Positions 8,813-46,067 of a stretch of DNA of 64,000 bases are shown here, in pieces. The stretch lies in IMG/VR virus record IMGVR_UViG_3300017991_000003, positions 1 through 64,000 of that record; one strand, written 5' to 3'. The notes under the pieces are model-generated. The model searched no databases, was not told where the DNA came from, and worked only from the letters and a program-made list of their open reading frames with translations. How positions within the stretch are numbered: position 1 is the stretch's first letter; the number at the start of each line of letters is the position of its first letter. Origin of the DNA: a virus. A program made the translations under genes and the position numbers.

Positions 8813-9339
8813 CCGAGACATGGAAAGAGGTCCCGGGCTACCCCGGGTACGAGGTCTCTGATCAGGGGCGGGTACGATCGTGGCGATCCAAACGCTACCC
8901 CGGGAAGCGTCGCAAGAAGCCGTGGGTTCTGCGCCCGTGGACGAACTCGGAGGGGTACCTCCGCGTCAGCCTTTGTAAGGACGGGAAGCGGGATACGCGG
9001 CTTGTGCATCGCGTAGTGCTCTCGGCGTTTGATCCTGACCCGCCCGCAGAGCGGTTCCAGGGAGAGCATCTAGACGGGAGCAAGGACAACAACAAGCTAG
9101 CTAACCTCCGTTGGTCGACTCCAAAGGAGAACAACGCTCGGAAGCATGAGCACGGTACTCAGCCGAAGCGCGGTGAGGAGTCACACCAAGCCCGTCTAAC
9201 CGAGGATCAGGTTCGAGAGATCCGTCGGCTGAAGGCGGAGGAGGGGTGGTCGTTCACCAAGCTGGGCAAGCACTTCGGTGTCAGCGATGTGGCTTGCTCC
9301 AAGATCGTTCGCCGTAAGACCTGGAGTCACGTCAAATGA
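8809..9339 (+). CDS. free-standing HNH homing endonuclease (NUMOD4-like N-terminus)
   Basis: N-terminal W-x-x-VPGYPGYEVSDQGRVRS motif; HNH core EHLDGSKDNNKLANLRWSTPKENN (about 9064..9129). Confidence 0.7.
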   Translation: MTETWKEVPGYPGYEVSDQGRVRSWRSKRYPGKRRKKPWVLRPWTNSEGYLRVSLCKDGKRDTRLVHRVVLSAFDPDPPAERFQGEHLDGSKDNNKLANLRWSTPKENNARKHEHGTQPKRGEESHQARLTEDQVREIRRLKAEEGWSFTKLGKHFGVSDVACSKIVRRKTWSHVK

Positions 9340-11231
9340 GCTATCAGTCAAGCCAGGGTGTGACAGGGCGCGGTGTCCGCAACGATCGGACCCTGAACAC
9401 GTACCCGCACCAGTTCTTCGATCCGAGCACGAGCTACATCCCTCACTCGGTGAAGGAGATGTACCGGTGGTGCCAGTTCCTGTACATGACGCACTCCGAG
9501 ATCGCCCCGGTGATCAACAAGAAGTGCGCGTACGTCATCACCAAGCTGATCTACGACTCCGACGTCGATGCGAACGTCAAGGCGTGGAAGAACCTGCTGG
9601 AAGAGAACATCAACATCCGGGAGATGGAGTACAAGCTCCTCCTGGACTTCGAGGTCTATGGCAACGCCTTCGTCTCGATCCACTACCCCTTCGAGCGCTA
9701 TCTGACCTGCCCTAACGGTGCGTGTAAGCAGCAGCATCCGGCGCGGAACATCGACTGGGAGTACCGAGATCACGAGTTCCGGGCCAAGTGCCCTGAGTGC
9801 GGTACTACGGGGGTGTTCAAGCCGCATGATCGCAAGATCCGCAACCGCCGGCGCATCAAGCTGATCCGCTGGAACCCCAAGTTTGTCAACATCCGCTACA
9901 ACCCGTTTACCGACGACTCGGTCTACATCTACCGGATCCCCAAATGGATTCAGAAGAAGCTGACCACGGTCAAGGAGAACAAGGAGCTGGTGTCGGGCAC
10001 TCCGCTGGTCATCCTCGAGGCGGTGCGTAAGAAGCGCGACGTCGAGCTCGACCGCGACAACATCTACCACTTCAAGAACGCCAGTATCAGTCTCGAGGAC
10101 GACGCCTTTGGCATGCCCCCCATGCTGGCGGTCTTCAAGGACGCCTGGTTGTTCCAGACGTTCCGCCGCGCGCAAGAGGCCATCGCCCTTGAGCACATCC
10201 TCCCGATGACTCTCCTGATCCCGGCGCCCACGGCAGCCGGCGTCTCCCCGCACATGAGCGTGGATCTCGGGGACTGGTCGGATCGGATGAACCTGATCAT
10301 CAAGAAGTGGCGTCGAGACCCCAACGCGCTCTTCACCATCCCGTTCCCGGCTCAGGTCGAGAACGTGCGGGGTGACGCCCAAGCGCTCGCTGTCCACAAC
10401 GACATGACCCAGATCCGCCAGCAGATCACCGGCGGCCTGGACGTGCCCCAGGAGTTCATCTACGGCGGCCTGAACTGGTCTGGCTCGTCGATCAGCCTAC
10501 GAGTGCTCGAGAACCTGTTCATCGGCCGAAAGGAGCAGCTGGATGCGTTCCTCCAGTGGGTGACCGACCGCCTTCAGCGGTTCTGCCTGCTACCGGAGAT
10601 GCACATCCGTCACCGTGACTTCAAGATGGCCGACGACGCTCAGCAGAAGCAGATCGCCCTCAGCCTGCGCCAGACCAACACGATCTCTGACCAGACCTCG
10701 ATCGAGGAGCTGGGCTTCGACTACGAGCGTGAGGAGGCGCGCAAGAGGCGCGAGGAAGAGGATCGACTGGCGGCCATGGAGCGCTCACAGCTTCGCCAGG
10801 CTGAGACGCAAGGCAAGGTCATGGTCCTCCAGGCGGAGTTCCAGGCCAACGCCGAGGCTGCCCAGATGCGCCAGCAGCAAGAGCAAGAGGCGAGGGCCAC
10901 CCAAGAGGGGTACGACACGACTCCTCCGGCGGAGCCAGGCATGGAGGGCGCTCCCGGCGAGCCCGGAGCTCCGATGCCGCCCCAAGGCCCCGGCGACCCT
11001 CAGCAGGCCCCTGACCAGACGGACCCGGTCATTCTCGACATGATGGCCAACCACCTGATCAAGGGGACGCCCCCGCATCTCCTGGAGCAGGAGCTCGCGG
11101 CGCTCGAGACCACGAACCCGGCACTGGCCAAGAAGGTCCGTGAGCGCATCAAGCTGATTCAGAAGCAGACGGCTGACTACAAGCCGCTGCCTGAGCAGAA
11201 ACCCCCGCGTCGCGAGTCGACCCCCGTCTGA
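9336..11231 (+). CDS. large virion-associated protein with internal Cys4 Zn-ribbon and C-terminal coiled-coil/acidic tail (possible portal; unresolved)
   Basis: 631 aa; CPNGAC...CPEC ribbon; C-terminal EEARKRREEEDRLAAMERSQLRQAE coiled-coil-like tail as often seen in portals; no direct portal signature recognised. Confidence 0.3.
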   Translation: MSYQSSQGVTGRGVRNDRTLNTYPHQFFDPSTSYIPHSVKEMYRWCQFLYMTHSEIAPVINKKCAYVITKLIYDSDVDANVKAWKNLLEENINIREMEYKLLLDFEVYGNAFVSIHYPFERYLTCPNGACKQQHPARNIDWEYRDHEFRAKCPECGTTGVFKPHDRKIRNRRRIKLIRWNPKFVNIRYNPFTDDSVYIYRIPKWIQKKLTTVKENKELVSGTPLVILEAVRKKRDVELDRDNIYHFKNASISLEDDAFGMPPMLAVFKDAWLFQTFRRAQEAIALEHILPMTLLIPAPTAAGVSPHMSVDLGDWSDRMNLIIKKWRRDPNALFTIPFPAQVENVRGDAQALAVHNDMTQIRQQITGGLDVPQEFIYGGLNWSGSSISLRVLENLFIGRKEQLDAFLQWVTDRLQRFCLLPEMHIRHRDFKMADDAQQKQIALSLRQTNTISDQTSIEELGFDYEREEARKRREEEDRLAAMERSQLRQAETQGKVMVLQAEFQANAEAAQMRQQQEQEARATQEGYDTTPPAEPGMEGAPGEPGAPMPPQGPGDPQQAPDQTDPVILDMMANHLIKGTPPHLLEQELAALETTNPALAKKVRERIKLIQKQTADYKPLPEQKPPRRESTPV

Positions 11232-11611
11232 TGGGCGCCAAGGGCAGTGGGCGTACACGCATCGAAGCGGACCTGATGCCTCGGGTCCGTGAGGGCTTTG
11301 CACGTCGTCTCCAAGACATGGGGACGATGAGCAAGCTCGGCGCCATCCTGCTCAAGCCCAACCAAGGGACACAGCGCCGCATCCGGCGTGAGACCCTCAA
11401 TATGGACACGGTCGGTGATCAGAAGCGTTGGCAGATGCTGCACAACGACTCCGAGCGCTATGAGGTCATCACGGCCAAGGACAGCAACACCAACCGCGGT
11501 AACTACTGCCACGTGACCTACATCGAGAAGGGTGACGACCTCCCCCTCGTCAAGAGCGAGAGCGAGCTCCGTTCTGAGGATAAAGAGCGCATCAAAGAGG
11601 AGGGCGGCTGA
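11231..11611 (+). CDS. hypothetical protein
   Basis: 126 aa ORF; ATGA-type overlaps at both ends. Confidence 0.5.
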   Translation: MGAKGSGRTRIEADLMPRVREGFARRLQDMGTMSKLGAILLKPNQGTQRRIRRETLNMDTVGDQKRWQMLHNDSERYEVITAKDSNTNRGNYCHVTYIEKGDDLPLVKSESELRSEDKERIKEEGG

Positions 11612-14600
11612 TGCTCGAAGGGCAGCACTTCCGGCAGTTCAAAGAGGCGCTGACTCGGTCGGAGGGCATCGTCAAGGGTATGTTCCCGATCGAGAGCCCC
11701 ACGAAGCGGCTCGAGGTCACGAACCTGCGTTGGACGAACGTAGGCCCGGACGTGGTCTTCGACGTCGAGAAGCAGAAGCAGGCCAAGCTGAAGGAGCAGT
11801 CGATCAACGCTGTTCTGGTCGGTGACGTCACGCTGCGTGAGCTCGGCTCCAAAGGGAAAGTCCTCGACCAGACCAAGCGCTACCCGATCCTCTCGGTGCC
11901 GCACCTGACGATGAACGCTGGCTACATCGTCAACGGCAAAGAGCAGCAGGTCGTCAACCAGTTCCGTCTGCGCCCTGGCATCTACACCCGGTTCACGGGG
12001 GACGACAACGTCGAGGCGTTCCTCAACACCACGGCGATCGGTACTTACAAGATCCTCCTCGACCGCTCTACCGGTGTGATCCGTATGCGGGTCGGCACGG
12101 CCGCACGCACCCCGATCTACTCGGTTCTGATCGCGGCTGGGCTGACTGATGCCGAGATCAAGACACTGCTGGGGACGGAGCTCTACGCGGAGAACAAGCG
12201 GGCGGCCAAGCCGGATCAGGACATCCCCAAGCTCCTGAAGCGGATGCGCCCGTACCTCAACCAGCCGGCGGAGCTGGGCGAGAAGTCAAAGCTCGTGCGT
12301 CAGTATCTGGAGTCGAAGCCCCTCGACCCCGCCGTGAACAAGGTCACGGTGGGCGAGGGTCTCGACCGCATCGACCGCAATGCCCTCGTGGCGGCGATCA
12401 AGAAGGTCCTCAAGCTGTCTAAGGGTGAGGCAGAGCCCGACGACACGGAGAGCCTTGCCTTCAAGTACATCCTCTCGATCGAGGACTTCGTGCCCGAGCG
12501 GCTCCAGAAGGCGGCCGACGGGCTCAAGTACAAGATCCAGGGCGACATGCGCCGCCGGGATGAGATCCGCTTGATCCTCCCGCCCAACCGCCTGAGCCAG
12601 CCGGTGGAGTCCTTTTTCACCACCTCGGAGTTCACGCGCTACTCGAGCCAGCACAACCCGCTGGACATGGCGGCGATCTCGAGCCTGACCACCACCATGG
12701 GTGATGGCGGGATCTCGAGCTCCCATGCGATCACCGACGAGGTGCGTACGATCCACCCGAGCCACTACGGTCTCCTGGATCCCATGCACACCCCGGAGGG
12801 GTGTTGCAGCGCTGACATGGAGGTCATGACGGATCAAGGCTGGGTTGCGTGGCCCGACGTAGACCGGACCACTCGGTTTGCTTGCCTAGACGCTGATCAA
12901 GGCCTTACCTATCACCGCGCCTCCGAGCTACACGTCTACGACCACGACGGGCCTCTCTACGGGTTCAAGTCGGAGACCCTGGAATACCTGCTGACCCCGA
13001 ATCATCGTCAGTGGGTCCGCCCGATTGAGGATCGATCGACGCGTGGGTATCGGTTTGAGACCGCGGAGGAGATGTACGGTAAACGTCGGCGAGTCCGCAT
13101 CGGCGGGCATTTGGCCTACGAGGGTCAGGCCGTCGATACCTGGCAGCTCCCTGAAATCCCTAAGGGAAGCAACTCGCAGAAGGTTTTCCCGGCCTTTGCT
13201 ATTGAGGACTGGGCTGAGTTCCTTGGCTGGTACCTGAGCGAAGGGAGCAGTCGGGGTTACGTGACTTCGATCACGCAGTATGAGGCTGCGAACCCGGAGA
13301 ATGTGGCTCAGATCGAGGCGCTGTTGACACGCATGCAGGTCGCGTGGAGCCGCAGCTCCAGGAGCTTCTCGATCCCAGGTAAGCAGCTAGTCAGCTACCT
13401 GCGTCAGTTCGGCCACTCCGATACCAAGTACATCCCTAAAGAGGCGTTCGACTTCCCGGCGGCGGCGCGTGAGGCCATGCTCGAGGCGCTAATGCTCGGA
13501 GACGGTCGCAAGGGCAAGGGCCGATGCTCTTGCTACTGCACTACATCTGAGCAGCTCGCCAAGGACGTGCAGCGCTTGGCCTTCGGCCTAGGGGTGTCGA
13601 GCAAAATCACCTTTGAGCCGGATACGCGGGAGGAGCACTACCGCGGGTGCTGGATCGTCCATCTCCACGCGCTCACTGAGCGTCAGGTGCTGCCACAAAT
13701 GCGCGCAGCAGGTAACGGCCAGTTCATCGAGGAATACCAAGGCAAGGTCTACTGCGCCACGGTTCCTGGTGGCCTGCTGTACATCCGTCGAGCCGGCAAG
13801 AGCGGTTTCTGGTCCGGCAATAGCAAGGTGGGCGTGACCGGTCACTTGGCCCTGGGCGCGCGCAAGAAGGGGCAGACCCTCTACGTCCCGGTCTATGACG
13901 CCAAGACGGGCAAGCGCGTGGAGAAGTCGGTTCAAGACCTGGACCAGGCCACCATCGCGTTCCCTGATCAGTACGACAACCTGCCCGACAAGCCGGGCGC
14001 GTCGGTCAAGGGCAAGCCCACGACCAAGCTGAAGAAGGTCAAGGCCCGTAGTCGTAACGAGTTCACGGAGGTGAGTCCGTCGGCTGTGGACTACATCTTC
14101 GTCAGCTCCGACAGCTTCTTCAGCTCGACCACGGCTGCGATTCCCTTCCTCCCCAACAACGACGCCAACCGCGTCCTGATGGGTGACAAGCATATCGAGC
14201 AGTCGGTGAACCTTGAGGACCCCGACGCGCCGATGGTCCAGCACCGCATCCGAGGCCGGGGCTATGAGGAGATGTTCGGGGAGCGCCTAGCCCCCCGGGC
14301 TATCGACCCCAAGACCGGCAAGCCCGTCGGCGGAGAGGTCCTCGAGGTCACCAAGACGCATATCACCATCCGGCCGGATGGCGGCGGCCGTCGACGCATC
14401 AAGGTCCCGATCCACGACCACTACCCGCTCAACAGCCGGACGTTCCTGCACGACGAGCCGGTGGTGAAGAAGGGTGACAAGGTCAAGCCTGGCCAGATCC
14501 TGGCCCGCAACAACTTCACCAAGGACGGAGACCTGGCGGTCGGCAAGAACCTCCGAGTCGCCTACACCGCGTACAAGGGCTACAACTTCGAGGACGGCAT

Positions 14601-17600
14601 CGTCATCTCGGAAGGGGCGGCTAAGAAGTTGACCTCGGTGCACAAGTACGAGGCCCGCGTTGAGAAGGGCAAGGGCATCACGGTCGGTGCAGACGCCTAC
14701 GCTGCCGCCTACCCCTCGGAGCTGGAGCATATCCGCGACCGTGCCCGGCGCTACGACGCTGTGGGTGTTATCAAGAAGGGCCAGCAGGTCGTCAAGGGCG
14801 ATGTCCTGATCCCCGCCATCCAGGAGGTCGAGGCGCATCCCGAGTACGACTACAAGCGTCTGCACCGCAGCGCCGGTCTCCGGCACATGGATATCAGCGA
14901 GACCTGGAACCACGACTTCCCTGGTGAGGTCGTAGACGTGGTCAAGACTCGGACATTCGTGAAGGTCGTGGTCAAGAGCAAGGAACCGATGCAGGTCGGT
15001 GACAAGCTGAGCTCGCGCCACGGCGCCAAGGGCATCGTCGTCAAGATCATCCCTGATGAGGAGATGTACAAGGACGAGGAAGGTGCGACGATCGATATCC
15101 TGCTCAACCCGGCGGGGGTGCCTGGTCGCGTCAACACGGGTCAGATGCTCGAAGCCGCGGCCGGCAAGCTGGCCCGTAAGACGGGCAAGAAGTACTACAC
15201 CGACAACTTCAACGAGAAGGGCAGCACGATCAAGAACCTCCGCAAGGAACTAGCGGGGGCCGGGATCTCCGATGAGGAGACGATCGTCGACCCGAAGACG
15301 GGGCACAAGCTCGAACGCGTCCTCGTCGGCGACACGCACATCTACAAACTGACCCACCAGGTCACGGGCAAGATGAAGGCCCGCGCCTCTGTGGGTGAGC
15401 CCTACTCGGTGGACGAGCAGCCCGTGAAGGGATCAGGGTCAGGTGCCCAGCGCATCGGCATCCTCGACACCTTCAGCCTGCTTTCGGGCGACGCCACGGC
15501 GTTCCTCGAGGATGCCTTCGGCCTCAAGAGCCAGAAGAACGACGAGTACTGGCGTGCCCTCCAGACTGGGCAAACACTGCCGCCTCCGAAGACCCCGTTC
15601 ATCGAGGAGAAGTTCGTGGCCATGCTCATTGGCGCGGGCATCGACCTCAAACAGAAAGGCAGTCGCATCGACGCGGGGCCGCTGACGGATGCTGAGGTTC
15701 TCTCAATGTCCAATGGCGCCATCGAGCGCCCGGTGGCGGTCAAGGCATCGAACCTCAAACCCGAGCGTGGCGGGCTCTTCGATCCCGGCAAGACCGGCGG
15801 TCCTGGCGGCAACTACTGGAACCATATCGATCTAGCCTCTGAGGTCGTGCACCCGCTGATGACCGACGCTGCGGCGTCCGTGGGCGGGTTCAAGACCAAG
15901 AAGGAGATGGACCAGATCATCCAGGGCCTGCTCGCGGTCACCGAGGAGGGCGAGGTCGTGGAGGCAGGCACCGCGGGTGCCGTGGCCGGTGGCTCGGGAG
16001 TGAAGCGCCGACTCGCTACGATCAACGTTCCGAGGGCCATCAAAGAGACCGAGTTGGTGGCGGCGACCGCCAAGGGCGCCAAGCTGGACAAGGCCCACAA
16101 ACGGCTGCGCTACCTGCGCTCGCTTCAAGCCAGTGGCCACTCGGCTGTTGATGCCTACATCAACAAGACCCTCCCGGTCATCCCCGCCAAGTTCCGTCAG
16201 ATCGCTCCGATGCCCGACGGCAGCCTGAGTGTGGCTGACGCCAACCACGGCTACCGAGAGGTCCTTCTCATCAACGAGAAGATCAAGCAGCTGAAGGCTC
16301 TCGGAGTCGACGAGCAGAACCTGCGAGCACTCAACAAGGCTCTGGCGGACGCTACGGCCGGCCTCGTAGGCACGGCGCCTCCGATCAGCCGAGGCAAGGT
16401 CTTCCGCGGCTTCGTCAGTCAGATCCACGGCCCGACGCCTAAGTCGGGTCTGGCGCAGTCGAAGCTCATGGGACGCAACCAAGACCTGAGCGGCCGGTCG
16501 ACTGTGATCCCCAACCCCAAGCTGGGGATGGACGAGGTCGGTATCCCGGCTGAGATCGCCTACAAGATCTACAAGCCCTTCGTCATCAAGCGTCTCGTCA
16601 CCGCCGGCCACAAGCCGCTAGATGCCCGCTCCATGGTCGAGCAGGGCCACCCGGCCGCCCGTCGTGCGCTCGAGGTGGAGGCTGAAGACCGCCCGGTGCT
16701 GATGAACCGCGCGCCCTCACTGCACAAGTTCAACATCCAGGCCCTCAAGCCCCGGGTGATCGACGGTAAGGCGGTCGAGGTCAACCCGCTCATCGTGAGC
16801 GGCTACAACATGGACTTCGACGGGGATACGGCCGGTCTACACGTTCCGGTCTCTGAAGAGGCCCGGCGCGAGGCTCGTGAGAAGCTGCTCCCGTCGCGCA
16901 ACCTGTTCAGCCCTCGGGAGGAGTTCGTGGTCCATGCCCCGACCAAGGAGACGATCCTCGGGGTGTACCTGATGACTACGCCCAAGGGACTTGCCTCCAA
17001 GTCGTTCTCCTCCGACCAGGAGATGGTCAAGGCATACCAGGCCAAGGAGATCAAGGTCAACGAAGCGGTGAAGGTCCAAGGCGCTGTGACCTGCGCCGGT
17101 CAGGCCATCTTCAACACGGCGCTTCCTATGGATCTGCGCGTGGGTCGTACGTCGGTGACCGGTCCGCGTTTGAGCCAGCTCCTGGTTCGCATCGGTCGGC
17201 AGTTGGGCCCCGACCGGGCCGCTCAAGTGATCTCGAAGATCAAGGACCTAGGCAACCACTACGTGACCGAGGTCGGGTTCTCCGTGAGTCTCCGGGACCT
17301 TGAGCTTGATACGAGCAAGCGGGATCAGATCGTCAACAAGCTCAAACGAGACGCCAAGACCAAGGGGTTCGATGAGGCGGCTGGCGAGGCGCTCGAAGAC
17401 ATCGCAGCGCTGCTGGCGTCGGCAGAGGATAACCGGTTCGTGGAGGCTGGCATCACATCCGGAGCCCTAGGCTCCAAAGGCATCCACCGGATGCTGGCGA
17501 GCACCGTGGCAGTGACGGATCACAAGGGCAAGACGGTCCCGATCCCGGTCGAGAAGTCCTATGCCGAGGGCCACGATCTAGGTACCTACTTGGGTACGAC

Positions 17601-18765
17601 CCCCGGCGCCCGGAAGGGCTTGATCGACAAAGGCCTGAGCGTGGCGGATACGGGCTACTTCAGCCGCATGCTCGTCAACAGCTCGATCGAGAACCAGGTG
17701 ACCGTCGCGGACTGCGGAACCAAGTCGGGCCAGGATCTGCCGCTCAACTCCCAGGAGCTCGCGCACCGCTACGGCGCCGAGGGCCGCTACCGCAACGTCT
17801 TGATCACCTCGGACATCGCCCGCCGCCTGCGCTCCCTAGGCCAGAAAACGGTCAAGGTCCGTAGCCCTCTGACTTGTCAGGCGCAGAAGGGCGTCTGTCA
17901 GAAGTGCTTCGGCCTACTCGAGGATGGCAAACCGCCTCGCATCGGTTATCACGTCGGTGCTCTGGCCGGCCAGACCCTGGGTGAGGTGGCTACCCAGCTG
18001 ACCCTGCGCAGCTTCCACACTGGTGGCGCTGTTGGTGGGCCCGACCTGGGTTTTGAGCGCATCCGTCAGATCATGGAGATGCCTCAAAGCATCCAAGGCA
18101 AAGCCATCCTGAGCGAGGCCACCGGCCAGGTGACGCGCATCGACACAGCGCCGGCGGGCGGTAGTTACGTCTACGTCGGCTCCGAGAAGCACTTCATCCC
18201 CAAGGAGCTGGGGGTAGCGGTGAGTCGAGGCCAGCGCGTGAAGGCGGGGGATCAGCTGAGCAAGTCGGGTGTGATCAAGCCTCAGGAGCTGCTAGATACG
18301 ACAGGGGACATCAATCGTGTCCGTACCCATCTGATCAACGAGCTGGATGCTAACTACAGAGCGGCCGGCAAGAAGGTCAACCGCCGGATCTTCGAGACGG
18401 TGGTCAAGCCTCTTACTGACCGTGCGACTGTGACGGACGTCGGAGACGCCGGCCGCCATTTCCCGGTACATGCCGGGGAGGTCATGCCTGTCAACCAGAT
18501 CGAGGAGATGAACCGCAAGCTCAAGCAGCGCCGTCTTCGCCCGATCCAGTTCGAGCCTATGATCATGGGTATCAAGCAGGCCCCGTTCCAGAGCGAGGAC
18601 TTCGTGGGAACGCTCACCCATGAGAAGCTCAAGCGGACCCTCACCGAGGCCCCTAGCCTGGGTAAAGCCACGGACCTTGTGCGCGGCCACCCGATGGCCC
18701 GCCTGGGTCTCACCAACCTCCGATCCATCGAAGCCATCAAACGACCTCAAGGGGTGAAGCGATGA
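11611..18765 (+). CDS. fused beta-beta' multisubunit DNA-dependent RNA polymerase, intein-containing
   Basis: Beta motifs: SQHNPLD...HPSHYG...HTPEG, IPFLPNNDANRVLMG, GDKLSSRHGAKGIVV (14998..15033), VNTGQMLE, GAQRIGILDTFSLL. Beta' motifs in the same frame: NHIDLASEVVHPL, NMDFDGD (about 16807..16827), PSLHKFNIQA. Beta' N-terminal Zn-ribbon appears absent. Confidence 0.85.
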   Translation: MLEGQHFRQFKEALTRSEGIVKGMFPIESPTKRLEVTNLRWTNVGPDVVFDVEKQKQAKLKEQSINAVLVGDVTLRELGSKGKVLDQTKRYPILSVPHLTMNAGYIVNGKEQQVVNQFRLRPGIYTRFTGDDNVEAFLNTTAIGTYKILLDRSTGVIRMRVGTAARTPIYSVLIAAGLTDAEIKTLLGTELYAENKRAAKPDQDIPKLLKRMRPYLNQPAELGEKSKLVRQYLESKPLDPAVNKVTVGEGLDRIDRNALVAAIKKVLKLSKGEAEPDDTESLAFKYILSIEDFVPERLQKAADGLKYKIQGDMRRRDEIRLILPPNRLSQPVESFFTTSEFTRYSSQHNPLDMAAISSLTTTMGDGGISSSHAITDEVRTIHPSHYGLLDPMHTPEGCCSADMEVMTDQGWVAWPDVDRTTRFACLDADQGLTYHRASELHVYDHDGPLYGFKSETLEYLLTPNHRQWVRPIEDRSTRGYRFETAEEMYGKRRRVRIGGHLAYEGQAVDTWQLPEIPKGSNSQKVFPAFAIEDWAEFLGWYLSEGSSRGYVTSITQYEAANPENVAQIEALLTRMQVAWSRSSRSFSIPGKQLVSYLRQFGHSDTKYIPKEAFDFPAAAREAMLEALMLGDGRKGKGRCSCYCTTSEQLAKDVQRLAFGLGVSSKITFEPDTREEHYRGCWIVHLHALTERQVLPQMRAAGNGQFIEEYQGKVYCATVPGGLLYIRRAGKSGFWSGNSKVGVTGHLALGARKKGQTLYVPVYDAKTGKRVEKSVQDLDQATIAFPDQYDNLPDKPGASVKGKPTTKLKKVKARSRNEFTEVSPSAVDYIFVSSDSFFSSTTAAIPFLPNNDANRVLMGDKHIEQSVNLEDPDAPMVQHRIRGRGYEEMFGERLAPRAIDPKTGKPVGGEVLEVTKTHITIRPDGGGRRRIKVPIHDHYPLNSRTFLHDEPVVKKGDKVKPGQILARNNFTKDGDLAVGKNLRVAYTAYKGYNFEDGIVISEGAAKKLTSVHKYEARVEKGKGITVGADAYAAAYPSELEHIRDRARRYDAVGVIKKGQQVVKGDVLIPAIQEVEAHPEYDYKRLHRSAGLRHMDISETWNHDFPGEVVDVVKTRTFVKVVVKSKEPMQVGDKLSSRHGAKGIVVKIIPDEEMYKDEEGATIDILLNPAGVPGRVNTGQMLEAAAGKLARKTGKKYYTDNFNEKGSTIKNLRKELAGAGISDEETIVDPKTGHKLERVLVGDTHIYKLTHQVTGKMKARASVGEPYSVDEQPVKGSGSGAQRIGILDTFSLLSGDATAFLEDAFGLKSQKNDEYWRALQTGQTLPPPKTPFIEEKFVAMLIGAGIDLKQKGSRIDAGPLTDAEVLSMSNGAIERPVAVKASNLKPERGGLFDPGKTGGPGGNYWNHIDLASEVVHPLMTDAAASVGGFKTKKEMDQIIQGLLAVTEEGEVVEAGTAGAVAGGSGVKRRLATINVPRAIKETELVAATAKGAKLDKAHKRLRYLRSLQASGHSAVDAYINKTLPVIPAKFRQIAPMPDGSLSVADANHGYREVLLINEKIKQLKALGVDEQNLRALNKALADATAGLVGTAPPISRGKVFRGFVSQIHGPTPKSGLAQSKLMGRNQDLSGRSTVIPNPKLGMDEVGIPAEIAYKIYKPFVIKRLVTAGHKPLDARSMVEQGHPAARRALEVEAEDRPVLMNRAPSLHKFNIQALKPRVIDGKAVEVNPLIVSGYNMDFDGDTAGLHVPVSEEARREAREKLLPSRNLFSPREEFVVHAPTKETILGVYLMTTPKGLASKSFSSDQEMVKAYQAKEIKVNEAVKVQGAVTCAGQAIFNTALPMDLRVGRTSVTGPRLSQLLVRIGRQLGPDRAAQVISKIKDLGNHYVTEVGFSVSLRDLELDTSKRDQIVNKLKRDAKTKGFDEAAGEALEDIAALLASAEDNRFVEAGITSGALGSKGIHRMLASTVAVTDHKGKTVPIPVEKSYAEGHDLGTYLGTTPGARKGLIDKGLSVADTGYFSRMLVNSSIENQVTVADCGTKSGQDLPLNSQELAHRYGAEGRYRNVLITSDIARRLRSLGQKTVKVRSPLTCQAQKGVCQKCFGLLEDGKPPRIGYHVGALAGQTLGEVATQLTLRSFHTGGAVGGPDLGFERIRQIMEMPQSIQGKAILSEATGQVTRIDTAPAGGSYVYVGSEKHFIPKELGVAVSRGQRVKAGDQLSKSGVIKPQELLDTTGDINRVRTHLINELDANYRAAGKKVNRRIFETVVKPLTDRATVTDVGDAGRHFPVHAGEVMPVNQIEEMNRKLKQRRLRPIQFEPMIMGIKQAPFQSEDFVGTLTHEKLKRTLTEAPSLGKATDLVRGHPMARLGLTNLRSIEAIKRPQGVKR
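12802..13821 (+). mobile_element. intein with LAGLIDADG homing-endonuclease domain inserted after the conserved TPEG of the beta module
   Basis: Begins CCSADMEVMTDQG (block A-like), TPNH (block B-like), two LAGLIDADG-like helices (LGWYLSEGS, EALMLGDGRKG), ends ...FWSGN followed by Ser; flanks (HTPEG / SKVGV...IPFLPNNDANR) restore beta-subunit colinearity. Boundaries within a few codons. Confidence 0.65.
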
Positions 18766-26115: not shown

Positions 26116-26137
26116 TGGCACTGGCTCCCAGTGTCAG
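26116..26137. promoter_or_regulatory. 22-nt conserved element TGGCACTGGCTCCCAGTGTCAG (copy 1)
   Basis: 20 nt upstream of the 26157 start; preceded by ATTT and hairpin-like repeats as in copy 2. Confidence 0.4.
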
Positions 26138-41900: not shown

Positions 41901-42214
41901 GCGCCCTGACCACGGACGTTACGACCCTGACCTTCGCCGAAGAGTCGGTGACGAGCCAGGCTGACAACTTCGCCCGGAAGCTCCGCGGCGCTTTGAAGCC
42001 TATCCTCGGTCCCTACATCCTGGATGAGGGCTTCTACACGCTGGTCAGCACCATCGCCTCCGGCGTGGTCAACAGCGTGGTTCCCGACGAACTGAAGGAC
42101 GCCCTGCTCCTCTCGATCACCGAAGACGAGACCGCGGCCGACAGCTTCATCATGGAGTACAAGATCGACGTCTGGTTCTCCGGTGCCCGCGGCACGATCA
42201 CCATCTACATCTAG
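38957..42214 (+). CDS. large structural protein (1085 aa), possible extended tail sheath
   Basis: Long Thr/Ser/Asp/Val-rich ORF followed by a 250-aa tube-like ORF; assignment by gene order only. Confidence 0.2.
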   Translation: MALENLRPDLKIEQKFVTAAPLVPASSLPVVLVGLNRDLRYRQLTDISAWNGGASVSDVDFPGWLGGAVEDTDQTDTYLRPVVEVYHDTYGWAAITDDVTFKNMATAPAMDIASGVDAVFEVASGTTGAFAVDTSAPAASAFTDANADFIDDQVAAGDVIKVDGIATYEVNSLGLVSDTELEVRRMDKGPGTAGAAEAAKIFVSAEDTNDVRTLYNTSTGFTAAGGFTSSGVAVGDLVRLDHWNIVSQGSGITFEAVGADTTTANNAGDTASATERVVTLPTADALTAWDNTTYTGGVFFTANADGDLMPAFYLSHAVAGPETVAIATDYGSNHLVDTEDADFGVKFQLFDYVYRTASASTTGAFTAENADGYRTFTDSSVTTFNGSPTTVQLGDHIAIKDEDGIYRPVFQVIGFGDAGSPASESPDTDATLAVQQFGDILGSAVFASNVDYVILGAEVEQEYLGATISAENADAYGATTRLLEATGEDFNADGVTAGDLVFSDSGTLMFIVVQVGDTVSPLTYDTLVVVDHPNAGTTLGTTDTIAEFGYSVRTSARSDFQVKRVVDADTLEITALSTTPNVIPGTRSIRGAIYFQTAPSIAASPDELGTNPVLVTAGDSDSAINYTIEKTLSGASLEGDVYVTYAEILNTNSASLLSFNSSTVTDVLGDAVPGNPLGLAGAIAAQNTDATMYAIQVTADTSAAWQTALEVAKTDTVYSLVPLTQNDTYLTLFQSHVTTQSLPDNKRERILWQSKWFKTQVDRTSYDSSVDTSNATVSRSALGVQTLTVYKDVVALGVIIGDEVTMTTFNGTSEVSVSGRITDIDNTTPAQPVLTMVADGNVPLSTTDLTVLTYDIKSKSLSQTELATSVTTYLTALSERRVRNIFPSRYQVTFTDTTGIYDSGLGDVEDYEVGGEYVGAIMAALRQARGPAQPLTKVAGSGIQLVIDPFSDSVTLQDQIIDGGGFYIEQPAGEGGSVQAIRALTTDVTTLTFAEESVTSQADNFARKLRGALKPILGPYILDEGFYTLVSTIASGVVNSVVPDELKDALLLSITEDETAADSFIMEYKIDVWFSGARGTITIYI

Positions 42215-42985: not shown

Positions 42986-42991
42986 GCTGAG

Positions 42992-43108
42992 ATGAACCTA
43001 ACAGCGGCGCTGATGCTCGGTGCCCTAGTGCTGGGGGTGGCTATCGTTCTCTTGGACGATCGCCGCTCCCAGCGGCGTAAACGGGCCAAAAGGAATAGGC
43101 GGAGCTAA
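42992..43108 (+). CDS. small membrane peptide (38 aa; hydrophobic helix + Arg/Lys tail)
   Basis: ATG 42992, TAA 43106; MNLTAALMLGALVLGVAIVLLDDRRSQRRKRAKRNRRS; below the ORF-track length cutoff. Confidence 0.3.
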   Translation: MNLTAALMLGALVLGVAIVLLDDRRSQRRKRAKRNRRS

Positions 43109-43142
43109 AAAGAAGGAGAAGGGGGCTGCCGCTCCCTTCTCC
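43105..43142 (-). terminator. rho-independent terminator for the - strand block
   Basis: Perfect 9-bp stem GGAGAAGGG/CCCTTCTCC (43115..43123 / 43134..43142), extendable to about 12 bp; on the - strand it is followed by TTCTTTTT (complement of 43105..43114). Confidence 0.6.
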
Positions 43143-43174
43143 GTGCTCACCGAGGGCTTCTCGATAAGGGGCCG

Positions 43175-43908: not shown

Positions 43909-44132
43909 TGCGCCCTCCTGGGCCAGTGCTGGCGGCAGAGCCGCTCAGCGTAGGCCTCAAGGGCCGCGGCCCGGTTGGCCTCGGCCGTGGCGATGCCCTC
44001 GGCCAGCTCCTCGCTGAGACCCTTGGCGGTCTCGACGTCGAGCTGGTCCTGCCGGGCCAGGAACGCCGTCACCGAGGTGACGTGTTCCTGAACGGAGGGG
44101 TGCTGGACCACACCGAGGCGTGGCACCCTCAC
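43905..44132 (-). CDS. hypothetical small protein
   Basis: GTG at 44132..44130 overlapping the upstream stop (GTGA); the longer track ORF to 44312 overlaps the membrane-protein gene. Confidence 0.3.
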   Translation of the reverse strand: MRVPRLGVVQHPSVQEHVTSVTAFLARQDQLDVETAKGLSEELAEGIATAEANRAAALEAYAERLCRQHWPRRAQ

Positions 44133-44554
44133 CGGGTCACCTCGTCGATGTAGTCCTTGATGGGCTTGTCCATCTCGATGGCGGCCTTCATGGCCGCCCA
44201 GATTTTGTCCGCATCCGCAAGCCGAAGGACCACACAGGTCCCGTAGATCGCGATGACGCTGAGCATCAGCGCGGCGGAGCCGACCACGGCGCTCGTAGTC
44301 CACCACATCCACGTGGGAAGCGGCAGGATCGTCAGGTCGTACACGCCGGCGACGACCACGATCGTGTAGACCGCGACCAGGGTCGCCACGATGGCGTACG
44401 CGGAGCGGTTGAGGTCCTTGAGGACCCCGGCGTGCATCAGCACGATGCTGATCACGCAGGTCGCCGACACGACCAGACCCGTGTTGGGGCCCAGTCCGAA
44501 GAAGGCGACGACGGCCCAGAACAGGCCGTACAGGGTGTTGAAGGTGCGCGACAT
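44129..44554 (-). CDS. small integral membrane protein
   Basis: Four hydrophobic segments; ATG at 44554..44552 preceded by GGAGG (track start 44620 also possible). Confidence 0.55.
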   Translation of the reverse strand: MSRTFNTLYGLFWAVVAFFGLGPNTGLVVSATCVISIVLMHAGVLKDLNRSAYAIVATLVAVYTIVVVAGVYDLTILPLPTWMWWTTSAVVGSAALMLSVIAIYGTCVVLRLADADKIWAAMKAAIEMDKPIKDYIDEVTR

Positions 44555-44703
44555 GGTCGGCCTCCAGTGTTGGGGTGATGATGGTGCCGGGGTAGACATT
44601 CCCCGGATCACTAAACTCATGCCCGAACCCTCGCTTGTTCTGGCGCTTTTGGGTACCTACACTTCTTGTCGATGATGAGTCGGCGCCTCTGCGGGGCGGC
44701 TTC

Positions 44704-44736
44704 TTTCATGGGCAGGGCCTCGACGCAGCGGCAGCG
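44704..44736 (+). terminator. long GC hairpin followed by ATTTT on + strand; orientation and function unresolved
   Basis: AGGGCCTCGACGC-AGCGGCA-GCGTCGGGGCCCT, about 13 bp with one G-U; sits between sigma-factor stop and membrane-protein start. Confidence 0.35.
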
Positions 44737-44753
44737 TCGGGGCCCTATTTTGT

Positions 44754-44775
44754 GGCACTGGCTCCCAGTGTCAGA
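44754..44775. promoter_or_regulatory. 22-nt conserved element TGGCACTGGCTCCCAGTGTCAG (copy 2), palindromic core ACTGG-N3-CCAGT
   Basis: Exact duplicate of 26116..26137; overlaps sigma-factor stop codon. Confidence 0.4.
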
Positions 44776-45619
44776 GATTGGGATCGATGTCCTCGAGCAG
44801 CACCCACAGCTCTCGAAGCCCCTCGTTCTCGATCTGCCTCACACGCTCCCGAGTCCGCCGGTAGAAGCGTGCGAGCTCCCCATAGGGGGTCGGGTTCTCG
44901 TGCCCGAACCCGTAGTGCCGGCGGATGATGTCCTCAGCCTCCGGCTTCAGCTGCGCCAGGGCCCAGTTCAAGAGGTCCCGGTTCTCCTGATTGATGACCC
45001 GATCGAGCATCGCCGGGGCCGGTCCTAGCTGAACCCCCTGCGCTGTGTCCTGGGTGAGCCGGCCGCACGCCTCGGTGATCTCGGTGTCCAGGGTCACCAA
45101 CCGACTATCCCGAGCGTGCCTGTACTTCCGGATCTTGTCCGGGTCCCAGCCGAGCTCCTCGAAGATCTCCTCCTCGTCCGGGTAGTAGCCGTTGGTCTTC
45201 AACATCCGGTACGCCTTGGTCTGGTAGTCGGTGACCAGGGACCGGTGGCGAATAGGCTTGGCTGAGAGGTTGCGGTACTCCCGACGGACCTCGGCGTCGA
45301 TCCACCAGACGGCGTAGGTACTGAACTTGACGTGGCTCTTCGTGCCCTTGACGACCCGGTCAAGGTCGAAATCCCTGAGCGCCTTCATAAGCCCCACGAA
45401 CCCCGCGGAGATCATGTCGTGATAGCGCGCGTCCTTGGCCTCGACGAAGCGCTGCACTCGTCGGATTACCAGGCGGACATTGTGTTCGACCAGCCGCTGA
45501 GCTGCGGCATCATCCCCCTCGCGTAGCGCTTTGACGAGCAGCTCGCGTTCTTCCTCCTTCGACAGGACTGGGTGATCAGCTGCCTTGTGTAGGGCGATCT
45601 CGTCGAAGGACCAGTCCAC
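44771..45619 (-). CDS. sigma-70-family RNA polymerase sigma factor
   Basis: Region 2: LVEHNVRLVIRRVQRF...GFVGLMKALRDFD...KFSTYAVWWI; region 4 helix-turn-helix: NPTPYGELARFYRRTRERVRQIENEGLREL. Confidence 0.75.
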   Translation of the reverse strand: MDWSFDEIALHKAADHPVLSKEEERELLVKALREGDDAAAQRLVEHNVRLVIRRVQRFVEAKDARYHDMISAGFVGLMKALRDFDLDRVVKGTKSHVKFSTYAVWWIDAEVRREYRNLSAKPIRHRSLVTDYQTKAYRMLKTNGYYPDEEEIFEELGWDPDKIRKYRHARDSRLVTLDTEITEACGRLTQDTAQGVQLGPAPAMLDRVINQENRDLLNWALAQLKPEAEDIIRRHYGFGHENPTPYGELARFYRRTRERVRQIENEGLRELWVLLEDIDPNL

Positions 45620-45620
45620 G

Positions 45621-46067
45621 TCAACAGCCGAACGTGTCGAGGAGAGCCTTTGCGATGCGGCGCAAAGTCTCCTTCTCGCGTAGGCGTGGTACCCCGAGAA
45701 GGACGAAGTCGTACTGGTTACGGAAGAGGGGACTCACGCCAGCCTCGGCTTGGGTCCCCTGGATATTCAGCTTGCGAGCCACGAGATCATAGAGGTATGC
45801 ACTGAGCTCCTCTAGATCCGCAGACACGATCTGCTTGAAGTGGATGAACACCTTGGATTGATCGCCCAAGGCCTGTGTTCCAATGTGAGCCTGGTAGCGC
45901 CGGCCGCCGCTGCTCTGAAGCTCCAGAACATCGGGGACGACTGCCACGCCTTTAGCCCCCTCGTAGAGGCTGGCGTCTTCAAGAGCCTTGGCGTCTTCAA
46001 GAGCGTTTTTCCACTCCTTAGATCCGGGCTTGATGACGGAGAAGGACGGGTCAGGTGTCGAGGACAT
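45621..46067 (-). CDS. hypothetical protein (148 aa)
   Basis: ORF one nt downstream of sigma-factor start. Confidence 0.5.
   Translation of the reverse strand: MSSTPDPSFSVIKPGSKEWKNALEDAKALEDASLYEGAKGVAVVPDVLELQSSGGRRYQAHIGTQALGDQSKVFIHFKQIVSADLEELSAYLYDLVARKLNIQGTQAEAGVSPLFRNQYDFVLLGVPRLREKETLRRIAKALLDTFGC

What the first reader, a model, noticed from the sequence alone, without database searches (positions are those of the whole stretch)
44771..45619. Element-encoded sigma-70-family factor alongside the element-encoded RNAP core
Clear region 2 (KFSTYAVWWI) and region 4 HTH. With the fused beta-beta' this implies a partly self-sufficient transcription system. Whether the sigma partners with the phage core, the host core or both is unknown.
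Basis: partly seen in the sequence, partly recalled or inferred. Interest (0 to 1): 0.7.

Follow-up and report, generated by a model that had tools for sequence, protein, structure and literature searches.

The report
Phage sigma factor for phage polymerase
A large tailed phage encodes a genuine bacterial-type sigma factor together with a single-chain beta-beta' RNA polymerase, and sequence evidence suggests the two work as a pair, which would let the phage transcribe its genes without the host enzyme; cultured relatives with the same gene pair are already on record.

Summary
ORF 44771-45619(-) encodes a 282-aa sigma-70-family protein: Pfam regions 2 and 4 pass their cut-offs, the AlphaFold model shows sigma2-sigma3-sigma4, and the best PDB matches are sigmaS, sigmaA and sigma32. 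ORF 11611-18765(+) is a 2384-aa fused beta-beta' RNA polymerase that contains an intein. The element is a tailed phage of at least 175 kb. The sigma belongs to a small clade of about 10 clusters in a 5.8-billion-protein database. In all 3 clade contigs long enough to test, it co-occurs with the fused polymerase. The clade keeps the DNA-melting residues and the -35 recognition helix, but it has lost the canonical beta'-binding residues (QEGN becomes SAGF). Those residues are kept in 75 of 78 other viral sigmas and 108 of 110 cellular ones. The matching beta' clamp-helix residues R275 and E295 are hydrophobic in every polymerase of the family that was examined. The best reading is a dedicated sigma for the phage core. 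This is not unprecedented: phages YerA41 (2020) and Arash (2023) were reported with beta, beta' and sigma all in virions, and the window shares Arash's portal-then-polymerase gene order. No promoter motif was found and pairing is not shown directly. Verdict: a new member of a known but uncharacterised kind, of moderate to high interest.

The parts
44771..45619 (-). Sigma-70-family factor, 282 aa, with domains sigma1.2-like/sigma2, sigma3, a sigma3.2 linker and sigma4. It has no region 1.1.
45266..45493 (-). Sigma region 2 (residues 43-118). It holds the region 2.2 core-binding helix DMISAGFVGLMKA (45380-45418) and the region 2.3-2.4 segment KFSTYAVWWIDAEVRRE (45278-45328).
   Evidence: Pfam hit; residue mapping to sigma70.
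45104..45244 (-). Sigma region 3, a three-helix domain (residues 126-172). The disordered sigma3.2 linker (residues 174-200) follows it.
   Evidence: AF2 helices 126-143, 149-156 and 160-172, with block-mean pLDDT about 84-90. The Pfam region 3 hit is below its cut-off.
44786..45010 (-). Sigma region 4 (residues 204-278), including the -35 recognition helix TRERVRQIENEGLRELW (44804-44854).
11611..18765 (+). Single-chain fused beta-beta' RNA polymerase, 2384 aa. The catalytic NMDFDGD motif is at 16807-16827.
16237..16368 (+). Beta' clamp-helix coiled coil (RNAP residues 1543-1586), the docking site for sigma region 2.2. E. coli R275 is Ile here and E295 is Leu.
   Evidence: Residue roles are taken from PMC8321222.
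14824..14877 (+). Beta flap-tip segment EVEAHPEYDYKRLHRSAG (RNAP residues 1072-1089), the presumed docking site for sigma region 4. It is divergent from E. coli but conserved within the phage family.
12802..13821 (+). Intein with a LAGLIDADG homing-endonuclease domain (RNAP residues 398-737), inserted in the beta TPEG motif. It must splice out for the polymerase to be active.
9336..11231 (+). Portal protein. It lies two genes upstream of the RNAP, the same order as in Arash (gp204 portal, gp205, gp206 RNAP).
   Evidence: tblastn E 1e-62 to Arash gp204 and 3e-71 to D69; Arash annotation.
45621..46067 (-). Conserved 148-aa ORF of unknown function. Its stop codon lies 1 nt before the sigma GTG start, so it may be a sigma-associated partner.
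44646..44774 (-). Non-coding tract downstream of sigma. It holds a hairpin over the stop codon (44753-44774), a GC-rich hairpin (about 44711-44745) and a perfectly conserved 18-nt block AGTGTAGGTACCCAAAAG (44646-44663). The tract is a candidate terminator plus promoter or operator for the next genes.

Best explanation
The ORF encodes the promoter-specificity subunit of the phage's own single-chain beta-beta' RNA polymerase. Together they would form a minimal holoenzyme of two polypeptides, with no alpha or omega homolog detected in the window. Shown: the protein is a complete sigma2-sigma3-sigma4 factor, and it keeps the aromatic residues that melt the -10 element and the helix that reads a -35 element. 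Shown: the phage core keeps both sigma-docking elements, the beta' clamp helices and the beta flap tip. Shown: the contact residues on both sides of the sigma2.2 / clamp-helix interface have changed from charged or polar to small or hydrophobic. Inferred: these changes make the sigma fit the phage core better than a canonical host core. Inferred from homology to Arash and YerA41, and from the polymerase gene lying directly after the portal gene in the virion module: the polymerase, and possibly the sigma, is packaged in the virion and injected to start early transcription. The sigma gene itself closes the helicase-RecA-RuvC DNA-metabolism operon, so new sigma is probably also made during infection.
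For: (1) Identity. (2) Co-occurrence: the sigma clade (P0001-P0010; next-best homologs drop from E 1e-43 to E 3e-23) lies on the same contig as a fused RNAP in the window, in the 94,506-bp contig (sigma P0005; RNAP L008/P0135) and in the 69,116-bp contig (sigma P0002; RNAP P0124 with the same longest-contig length). Gene order around sigma is conserved in the window, L002, L018, L182 and L184. (3) More distant RNAP-encoding phages also carry a sigma: D69, IMG/VR 3300000227_000004, where sigma lies 2.3 kb from the RNAP, Arash and YerA41. (4) Interface, sigma side: sigma70 Q406/E407/N409 read S/A/F in the window. Across the clade, position 407 is A in 9 and S in 1, while 108 of 110 cellular homologs have E and 75 of 78 sigmas on other viral contigs have E. 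The other RNAP-linked sigmas read SDGI, SEGF and NAGC. (5) Interface, core side: beta' R275 is I, V or L and E295 is L or A in all phage RNAPs examined, including Arash and D69. PMC8321222 documents these beta' residues as required for holoenzyme formation, lists sigma70 403, 406, 407 and 409 as the contact residues, and reports a precedent of paired change in Hodgkinia. (6) The core retains a clamp coiled coil, a conserved flap-tip helix and an intact NMDFDGD motif. (7) Virion link: Arash beta, beta' and sigma were detected in purified virions, with beta giving the highest spectral count (PMC10585845). YerA41 RNAP subunits and sigma were particle-associated (PMC7354516). The window's virion module is collinear with Arash and D69, and the RNAP follows the portal gene.
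Against: There is no direct evidence of binding. The interface argument is a correlation, and both sides could have drifted independently in fast-evolving phage genes. The sigma gene is 26 kb from the RNAP gene, on the other strand and in a DNA-metabolism operon, not next to the polymerase. The -35 recognition helix is identical to that of cellular sigmas, yet TTGACA-N16-18-TAnnnT sites are not enriched in the window (3 found, 4.3 expected), and no repeated promoter motif was found, so the cognate promoter is unknown. Only 1 of 80 RNAP loci had a detectable sigma within 10 kb, so the sigma status of most of the wider family is untested. Only 64 of at least 175 kb were available, so an alpha- or omega-like subunit elsewhere cannot be excluded. 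The Arash and D69 sigmas are so divergent from this one (28% identity over region 2, or unalignable) that orthology is uncertain, and transferring the virion-packaging result is an extrapolation.
Confidence: 0.6

Rival explanations
1. The sigma redirects the host RNA polymerase core to phage middle or late promoters, as proposed for sigmas of RNAP-less jumbo phages and shown for T4 gp55 and SPO1 gp28/gp34. The phage polymerase would use some other initiation factor, or none.
For: This is the textbook role of phage sigmas (reviews PMC7598289, PMC7824862 and PMC13282480). The gene lies in the DNA-metabolism operon and converges on the virion block, a placement that would suit a middle-to-late switch. 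The -35 helix and the melting residues are fully cellular-like, so in principle the protein could function on a bacterial core.
Against: Three of the four documented beta'-contact residues in region 2.2 are replaced in the window's sigma. Sigmas on other viral contigs, none of which showed an RNAP gene in the fetched flanks and which presumably use host core, keep these residues in 68-75 of 78 cases. The sigma clade was found only in phages that also carry the fused RNAP, wherever this could be tested. The phage core retains both sigma-docking elements, which would be unexplained if it did not use a sigma.
Confidence: 0.15
2. The sigma serves both cores. It works with the injected or newly made phage polymerase and can also load onto host core, for example to boost phage transcription or to compete host sigmas off the host enzyme.
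For: Most of the sigma-core interface outside region 2.2 is conserved: N383, R385, L386, V387, D403, G408, G411 and L412 are unchanged. PMC8321222 notes that mutations at the region 2.2 contact residues only weaken binding to the coiled coil rather than abolish it.
Against: The interface changes are the same as listed above. Nothing positively supports host binding. The host is unidentified, so its beta' could not be inspected.
Confidence: 0.2
3. The gene is a recently captured cellular sigma with no dedicated role, either a passenger or a decaying gene.
For: Its motifs are much closer to cellular group 1/2 sigmas than the Arash or D69 sigmas are.
Against: It is a conserved clade, with 37-59% identity among members, 60 invariant columns and conserved gene order across lineages whose RNAPs are only 55% identical. 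The closest cellular homologs are only about 30% identical and no donor lineage is evident. The third-position GC of the ORF (0.84) matches neighbouring phage genes.
Confidence: 0.05

Closest known systems
Salmonella phage Arash (gp206/gp216 RNAP plus gp10 sigma; PMC10585845) and Vibrio phage D69 (OZ195729.1)
   Same: Both are tailed phages of about 180-190 kb with a cellular-type beta-beta' gene placed directly after the portal gene, a collinear virion module (portal, terminase, protease, major capsid and tail genes) and a sigma-70-family gene in the same genome. Their beta' clamp helices carry the same R275 and E295 replacements.
   Different: Their RNAP is only about 28-31% identical and is split within beta' into a 1525-aa beta+beta'N protein and a roughly 606-aa beta'C protein. 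Their sigmas are highly diverged: Arash gp10 lacks the FSTYAxWWI and RERxRQ motifs, and D69 is 28% identical over region 2 only. The sigma gene sits elsewhere in those genomes (in the virion block in Arash). GC content and hosts differ. Virion association is shown for Arash and is not known here.
Yersinia phage YerA41 (PMC7354516)
   Same: It is a phage with beta and beta' subunits and a sigma factor. All were detected in phage particles, and the sigma was expressed late. Its RNAP is homologous to the window's.
   Different: Its RNAP is in several subunit genes, and its DNA is hypermodified. The sequence relationship of its sigma to this one was not examined.
mReC, the multisubunit-RNAP-encoding Caudovirales (Weinheimer & Aylward 2020, PMC7481178)
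   Same: These are tailed phages from metagenomes with beta and beta' close enough to cellular enzymes to be found by COG or Pfam profiles.
   Different: The published contigs seen in the supplement are low-GC (35-42%) with separate beta and beta' genes. The paper's main text never mentions sigma. Membership of this phage in the mReC clade was not tested phylogenetically.
Sigma factors of RNAP-less phages (T4 gp55, SPO1 gp28/gp34, cyanophage and jumbo-phage RpoD-like sigmas)
   Same: They are phage-encoded sigma-70-family proteins that reprogramme promoter choice.
   Different: Those phages have no polymerase of their own, so their sigmas must bind host core. The 78 viral sigmas sampled here keep the canonical QEGN core-binding residues, and this clade does not.
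phiKZ / AR9 non-canonical multisubunit RNAPs with gp68 / gp226
   Same: They give host-independent phage transcription using a beta/beta'-derived enzyme plus a specificity subunit, and one version of the enzyme is packaged in the virion.
   Different: Those enzymes are split into 4-5 highly diverged polypeptides. They lack any sequence-recognisable sigma, and AR9 reads the template strand. Here the core is a single chain detectable by Pfam, and the specificity factor is a bona fide sigma-70 protein.
E. coli sigmaS / group 2 sigmas
   Same: The architecture is the same: region 1.2 through region 4 with no region 1.1 and no non-conserved insert. These give the best profile and fold matches.
   Different: The score of 101.9 bits is far below the 378.7-bit equivalog cut-off. 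There is no Pfam region 1.2 hit, there is a 4-residue deletion between regions 2.4 and 3.0, and near-invariant residues are replaced (E407, Q437, R554, R562, L573).

Membership tests
Sigma-70 family (Pfam Sigma70_r2/r4; NCBIfam TIGR02937) | A region 2 domain scoring above the curated cut-off | tested here: met
   PF04542 scores 37.9 bits against a cut-off of 24, over residues 43-118.
Sigma-70 family (Pfam Sigma70_r2/r4; NCBIfam TIGR02937) | A region 4 HTH domain scoring above the curated cut-off | tested here: met
   PF04545 scores 34.2 bits against 24.1, over residues 220-271. TIGR02937 scores 67.3 against 42.9.
Sigma-70 family (Pfam Sigma70_r2/r4; NCBIfam TIGR02937) | Aromatic and basic residues of region 2.3 that nucleate -10 melting (sigma70 Y430, W433, W434) | tested here: met
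   These residues are invariant in the clade, within FSTYAVWWI.
Sigma-70 family (Pfam Sigma70_r2/r4; NCBIfam TIGR02937) | The overall sigma2-sigma3-sigma4 fold | tested here: met
   The AF2 model has mean pLDDT 79.5 and three helical domains. The top Foldseek PDB hits are sigmaS, sigmaA and sigma32 over about 280 aligned columns, E 4e-11. Pfam region 3 alone is below its cut-off (19 against 25.3).
Sigma-70 family (Pfam Sigma70_r2/r4; NCBIfam TIGR02937) | Binds an RNAP core and confers promoter-specific initiation | not testable with these tools
   This needs biochemistry.
Group 1/2 sigmas (RpoD / RpoS equivalogs) | A score above the NCBIfam equivalog cut-off | tested here: not met
   RpoS TIGR02394 scores 101.9 against 378.7, and RpoD_Cterm TIGR02393 scores 98.7 against 354.
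Group 1/2 sigmas (RpoD / RpoS equivalogs) | A recognisable region 1.2 (PF00140) | tested here: not met
   The window protein has no PF00140 hit, and none of P0001-P0010 has it in the precomputed Pfam column, whereas most of the cellular homologs listed carry it. A diverged region 1.2-like stretch does align.
Phage sigmas that redirect host RNAP (T4 gp55 type; RpoD-like sigmas of RNAP-less jumbo phages) | The phage lacks its own multisubunit RNAP | tested here: not met
   A fused beta-beta' gene is present in the same genome.
Phage sigmas that redirect host RNAP (T4 gp55 type; RpoD-like sigmas of RNAP-less jumbo phages) | Canonical region 2.2 residues for binding a bacterial beta' coiled coil (sigma70 Q406, E407, N409) | tested here: not met
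   The window reads S, A, F. Among 78 other viral sigmas, Q406 is kept in 73, E407 in 75 and N409 in 68.
Arash / D69 / YerA41-type phages (cellular-type beta-beta' plus sigma, virion-associated) | A beta-beta' gene homologous to theirs and placed after the portal gene in a collinear virion module | tested here: met
   tblastn gives 28-31% identity over 63-80% of the query. Portal, terminase, protease, capsid and tail homologs lie in the same order.
Arash / D69 / YerA41-type phages (cellular-type beta-beta' plus sigma, virion-associated) | A sigma-70-family gene in the same genome | tested here: met
Arash / D69 / YerA41-type phages (cellular-type beta-beta' plus sigma, virion-associated) | The sigma is orthologous to Arash gp10 or D69 gp0246 | tested here: inconclusive
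   D69 matches at 28% identity over residues 17-165 only (E 3e-8). Arash gp10 aligns poorly and lacks the key motifs.
Arash / D69 / YerA41-type phages (cellular-type beta-beta' plus sigma, virion-associated) | RNAP and sigma are present in purified virions | not testable with these tools
   This is known only for Arash and YerA41 from mass spectrometry.
mReC clade (Weinheimer & Aylward 2020) | Phylogenetic placement of beta and beta' in the deep-branching Caudovirales clade | not tested
   No tree was built. The published examples seen have low GC and separate beta and beta' genes.
phiKZ / AR9 non-canonical msRNAPs | Beta and beta' split into 4-5 highly diverged polypeptides, with no sigma homolog | tested here: not met
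   Here there is a single 2384-aa chain with strong Pfam hits and a canonical sigma. The family is as described in the reviews.

The most novel reading that the evidence does not exclude
The fused beta-beta' chain plus this sigma form a complete, alpha- and omega-less bacterial-type holoenzyme of two polypeptides. It would be packaged in the capsid and injected, making the whole phage transcription programme independent of the host. Its remodelled sigma2.2 / clamp-helix interface (SAGF facing Ile275 and Leu295) would insulate it in both directions: host sigmas could not use the phage core, and the phage sigma could not be captured by the host core. It would be the simplest known sigma-dependent multisubunit RNA polymerase and a natural orthogonal transcription module.
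Probability: 0.35. Interest if true: 0.8.

Novelty: new member of a known kind. Interest (0 to 1): 0.58.

Why it matters
Reviews of phage transcription up to 2026 divide large phages into two groups: those with non-canonical polymerases and no sigma, and those with sigmas and no polymerase. This phage and its relatives fit neither group. They combine a polymerase detectable with standard profiles and a textbook sigma, and the polymerase family is large (264 IMG/VR contigs). If the two proteins pair, the system is a naturally minimised sigma-dependent holoenzyme. That would be useful for asking what alpha and omega are really needed for and how sigma-core specificity is encoded. It could also serve as an orthogonal transcription module. 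It also bears on the claim that these phage polymerases branched off before the bacterial radiation, because a co-inherited sigma would push sigma-dependence equally deep. Cultured relatives (Arash on Salmonella, D69 on Vibrio) make the question directly testable.

Tried and rejected
1. Promoter discovery. A TTGACA-N16-18-TAnnnT scan found 3 sites against 4.3 expected. A whole-window repeat search found no multi-copy intergenic motif. The conserved 18-nt block downstream of sigma is single-copy. A scan_promoters_terminators call failed on its size limit and was not repeated. A home-made intergenic extraction from relatives was too noisy to use.

2. Sigma within 10 kb of the RNAP across the family. 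Only 1 of 80 loci was positive with a cellular-type sigma HMM or with D69 and Arash seeds. This says little, because in the window the genes are 26 kb apart.

3. Alpha- or omega-like subunits near the RNAP. Pfam found none in ten flanking ORFs.

4. The 148-aa ORF coupled to sigma. It has no Pfam family and only 2 hits in 5.8 billion proteins. The AF2 model (pLDDT 63.7) has no significant PDB match, with best E 0.02 to T3SS-chaperone/YbjN-like folds.

5. Modelling of the sigma-core complex. It was not attempted, because the tool takes single chains from the window only and returns no inter-domain error or coordinates, so an interface could not be judged.

6. Near-identical deposited phage. There is no megablast hit.

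7. Literature searches for 'mReC' plus sigma returned nothing relevant.

8. Confirming the 69,116-bp contig by record name.
Full report
THE OBSERVATION

It is a sigma-70-family protein beyond reasonable doubt.
- Pfam Sigma70_r2 (37.9 bits) and Sigma70_r4 (34.2 bits) both exceed their curated cut-offs. Sigma70_r3 is sub-threshold at 19 bits.
- NCBIfam aligns the protein end to end with the RpoS and RpoD C-terminal profiles (E 4e-29 and 4e-28). The score of about 100 bits is far below the 350-380-bit equivalog cut-offs, and the protein passes only the superfamily model TIGR02937.
- PHROG phrog_351, annotated 'RNA polymerase sigma factor', matches at E 6e-40.
- Against PDB sequences the best hits are SigA, RpoS and RpoD chains from holoenzyme structures, best E 8.9e-22.
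- An AlphaFold2 model built on a 60-sequence alignment has mean pLDDT 79.5. It shows helices for regions 1.2-2.4 (residues 5-118), a three-helix sigma3 domain (126-172), a disordered sigma3.2 linker (174-200) and sigma4 (204-278).
- Foldseek returns E. coli sigmaS, sigmaA and sigma32 over the full length.
- There is no region 1.1.

The second half of the observation also holds. ORF 11611..18765(+) is one 2384-aa chain with Rpb2 domains followed by Rpb1 domains. It aligns to E. coli beta 50-1295 and then to beta' 30-1344, and its catalytic NMDFDGD motif is intact.

WHAT THE ELEMENT IS

The window is bases 1-64000 of a 174,660-bp metagenomic contig (ENA ERZ27256773). Identical sigma-neighbour and RNAP proteins also occur on a 193,018-bp contig. 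The element is a tailed phage.
- It encodes a large terminase (24211-26040), a prohead protease (28273-29682) and a major head protein (31801-33063).
- It encodes a portal (9336-11231; tblastn E 1e-62 to Arash gp204).
- Genes form a plus-strand virion block (119-42985) that contains the polymerase. This block converges on a minus-strand DNA-metabolism block (43175-63841) that contains the sigma.
- No near-identical phage is deposited.

THE SIGMA CLADE AND ITS LINK TO THE POLYMERASE

In a 5.8-billion-protein database the sigma has only nine close relatives besides itself (37-59% identity). The next homologs drop sharply from E 1e-43 to E 3e-23 and are cellular group 1/2 sigmas at about 30% identity.

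Gene order around the sigma is conserved in every clade member examined. The order is ResIII helicase, RecA-like, RuvC, a gene of about 190 aa, a gene of about 145 aa, then sigma, converging on a gene of about 250 aa and one of about 1085 aa in the virion block.

The fused polymerase is present wherever the contig is long enough to reach it:
- the window itself;
- the 94,506-bp contig (sigma P0005; RNAP 55% identical);
- the 69,116-bp contig (sigma P0002; RNAP P0124 is 80% identical and has the same longest-contig length; both genes also occur in sister sample ERZ28668940).

The single-ORF fusion is itself conserved, and the family is large. 264 IMG/VR contigs encode relatives, and some of these contigs approach 200 kb.

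More distant RNAP-encoding phages also carry sigmas:
- Vibrio phage D69: sigma about 9 kb from the RNAP gene, and the RNAP is annotated only as 'hypothetical';
- IMG/VR 3300000227_000004: sigma 2.3 kb from the RNAP;
- Salmonella phage Arash and Yersinia phage YerA41.

WHICH CORE DOES IT BIND?

I mapped the clade onto E. coli sigma70 and compared each position with 110 cellular homologs.
- Functional residues are kept. The melting motif FSTYAVWWI (Y430, W433, W434) is invariant, and so is the -35 recognition helix (R584, E585, R586, R588, Q589).
- Several near-invariant positions are uniformly replaced: E407 becomes A or S (E in 108 of 110 cellular sequences); Q437 becomes A (Q in 106 of 110), which is the -12 reader by my own knowledge of sigma70; R554 becomes E or V; R562 becomes H; L573 becomes Y; R599 becomes W.
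- There is a 4-residue deletion between regions 2.4 and 3.0, and E458 is lost. By my own knowledge E458 reads the extended -10 element.
- The region 2.2 helix reads DMISAGFVGL where sigma70 reads DLIQEGNIGL.

PMC8321222, citing the original mutagenesis, lists sigma70 403, 406, 407 and 409 as the residues that contact the beta' coiled coil. It lists beta' R275, E295 and A302 as required for holoenzyme formation.

On the core side, the clamp-helix coiled coil is present in every phage polymerase examined. R275 is Ile, Val or Leu and E295 is Leu or Ala in all of them, including Arash and D69. Position 302 is Ala in most and Ser or Gly in the rest.

As a control, I examined 78 sigma homologs on other IMG/VR viral contigs. 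None showed an RNAP gene in the fetched flanks. They keep Q406 in 73 cases, E407 in 75, N409 in 68 and Q437 in 75. The single strong outlier, L018 (SDGI), has the same gene order as the window and is therefore a distant clade member. The other RNAP-linked sigmas read SEGF (L223) and NAGC (D69).

Loss of the polar contact residues is therefore specific to sigmas that live alongside this polymerase family, and the complementary charged residues are missing from that polymerase. The same paper reports a precedent of paired change in Hodgkinia endosymbionts.

The beta flap tip, which docks sigma4, is also present. It is divergent from E. coli but conserved within the family (HPEYDYKRLHRS against TPEEKLLRAIFGE). 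Several sigma4 positions have changed in parallel.

This is correlative evidence. It points to the phage core as the partner and away from a canonical host core.

HOW IT PROBABLY WORKS

- Shown: a complete sigma, a core with both sigma-docking elements, and conserved co-occurrence.
- Inferred: the two form a two-polypeptide holoenzyme. Pfam found no alpha- or omega-like protein in ten ORFs flanking the RNAP gene, but only 64 of at least 175 kb could be searched.
- Inferred by homology: the holoenzyme is associated with the virion. In Arash the RNAP beta protein gave the highest spectral count in purified virions, and beta' and sigma were also detected (PMC10585845). In YerA41 the RNAP subunits and the late-expressed sigma were particle-associated (PMC7354516). 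The window shares Arash's portal, small ORF, RNAP order and an otherwise collinear virion module.
- Here the sigma gene closes the DNA-metabolism operon. It starts 1 nt after the stop codon of a conserved 148-aa ORF of unknown function.

The cognate promoter is unknown. E. coli-type promoters are not enriched and no repeated motif was found. Given the conserved -35 helix but altered -12 and extended -10 readers, I expect a TTGAC-like -35 element combined with a non-canonical upstream edge of the -10 element. This is a prediction only.

COMPARISON WITH WHAT IS KNOWN

Reviews from 2020, 2021 and 2026 describe two kinds of large phage. One kind has non-canonical split polymerases with no sigma, alpha or omega homologs (phiKZ, AR9). 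The other has sigma homologs and no polymerase. The mReC paper on cellular-like phage polymerases does not mention sigma in its main text.

The window fits neither category, but it is not the first of its kind. YerA41 (2020) and Arash (2023) were annotated with beta, beta' and sigma, and their virion proteomics detected all three. None of these systems has been characterised biochemically.

Compared with those phages, the window's polymerase is an uninterrupted single chain, apart from its intein. Its sigma is much closer to cellular sigmas, and the sigma gene sits in a different module.

I file this as a new member of a known but unstudied kind. It adds a newly defined sigma subfamily and a specific, testable interface signature.

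SIDE OBSERVATIONS

- A 340-aa LAGLIDADG intein interrupts the polymerase inside the conserved beta TPEG motif (12802-13821). Inteins and homing-endonuclease domains are common across the family.
- An exact 22-nt hairpin occurs twice, once over the sigma stop codon and once after the terminase gene. A relative whose sigma is 59% identical has a hairpin with a compensatory change at the same place.
- That hairpin is followed by a GC-rich hairpin and an 18-nt block that is perfectly conserved between the window and this relative.

CONFIDENCE

- That this is a real sigma-70-family factor in a phage with its own fused beta-beta': about 0.98.
- That it is the dedicated partner of the phage core: about 0.6.
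- That it binds both cores: 0.2.
- That it binds host core only: 0.15.
- That it is a passenger gene: 0.05.

Noticed in passing
window 12802-13821 (+), RNAP residues 398-737: A 340-aa intein (Cys1 ... Asn, with Ser at +1) carrying a LAGLIDADG homing-endonuclease domain (23.5 bits, above the cut-off when scanned alone) sits inside the conserved beta 'TPEG' motif of the fused polymerase. It is absent from the 78%-identical relative. Many family members carry intein or homing-endonuclease domains (PF14528, PF14890, PF05204).
   Followed up: yes
window 26116-26137 and 44753-44774: An exact 22-nt inverted-repeat hairpin, TGGCACTGGCTCCCAGTGTCAG, occurs twice (0.02 copies expected by chance). One copy lies just after the terminase gene and the other overlaps the sigma stop codon. 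The sequence is not found in relatives, but L184 has a hairpin with a compensatory base-pair change at the same position after its sigma gene.
   Followed up: partly
window 44646-44663 (-): An 18-nt block, AGTGTAGGTACCCAAAAG, is 100% conserved with a relative whose sigma is 59% identical (L184). The surrounding spacer has otherwise diverged. The block lies about 25-30 nt upstream of the next ORF (44129-44620) and is single-copy in the window. It is a candidate promoter or operator.
   Followed up: partly
window 45621-46067 (-): A 148-aa ORF has its stop codon 1 nt before the sigma start codon. It is conserved upstream of sigma in four lineages (28-62% identity). It has no Pfam family and only 2 hits in 5.8 billion proteins. 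The low-confidence AF2 alpha/beta model has no significant PDB match. It may be a sigma-associated factor.
   Followed up: partly
window 8809-9339 (+): A NUMOD4/HNH homing endonuclease gene is wedged between virion-block genes immediately upstream of the portal gene. D69 and Arash also carry homing endonucleases around their RNAP genes.
   Followed up: no
window 47909-48202 and 53376-53516 (-): Two low-complexity coding repeats. One is a long acidic Glu/Asp-rich tract in the 588-aa ORF 47669-49435. The other is a Lys-rich tract at the N-terminus of the RecA-like ORF 51915-53525.
   Followed up: no
window 1054-6228 (+) and 38957-42214 (+): Two very large virion-block ORFs (1724 aa and 1085 aa) have no Pfam or PHROG family. 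The 1085-aa protein is conserved next to the sigma locus in all relatives and is weakly similar to a D69 protein.
   Followed up: partly
L098 43288-50339 (Vibrio phage D69) and L101 4094-15262 (Salmonella phage Arash): In these cultured phages the beta-beta' enzyme is a 1525-1527-aa beta+beta'N fusion plus a separate beta'C protein of about 606 aa. The D69 genes are annotated only as 'hypothetical protein', so the polymerase has gone unrecognised in that deposited record.
   Followed up: partly
whole window: There are no tRNA genes. TTGACA-N16-18-TAnnnT promoter-like sites are not enriched (3 found, 4.3 expected). GC-rich hairpins without clear U-tracts follow the major capsid gene (33064-33158) and lie at the convergent junction (42986-43174).
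   Followed up: partly
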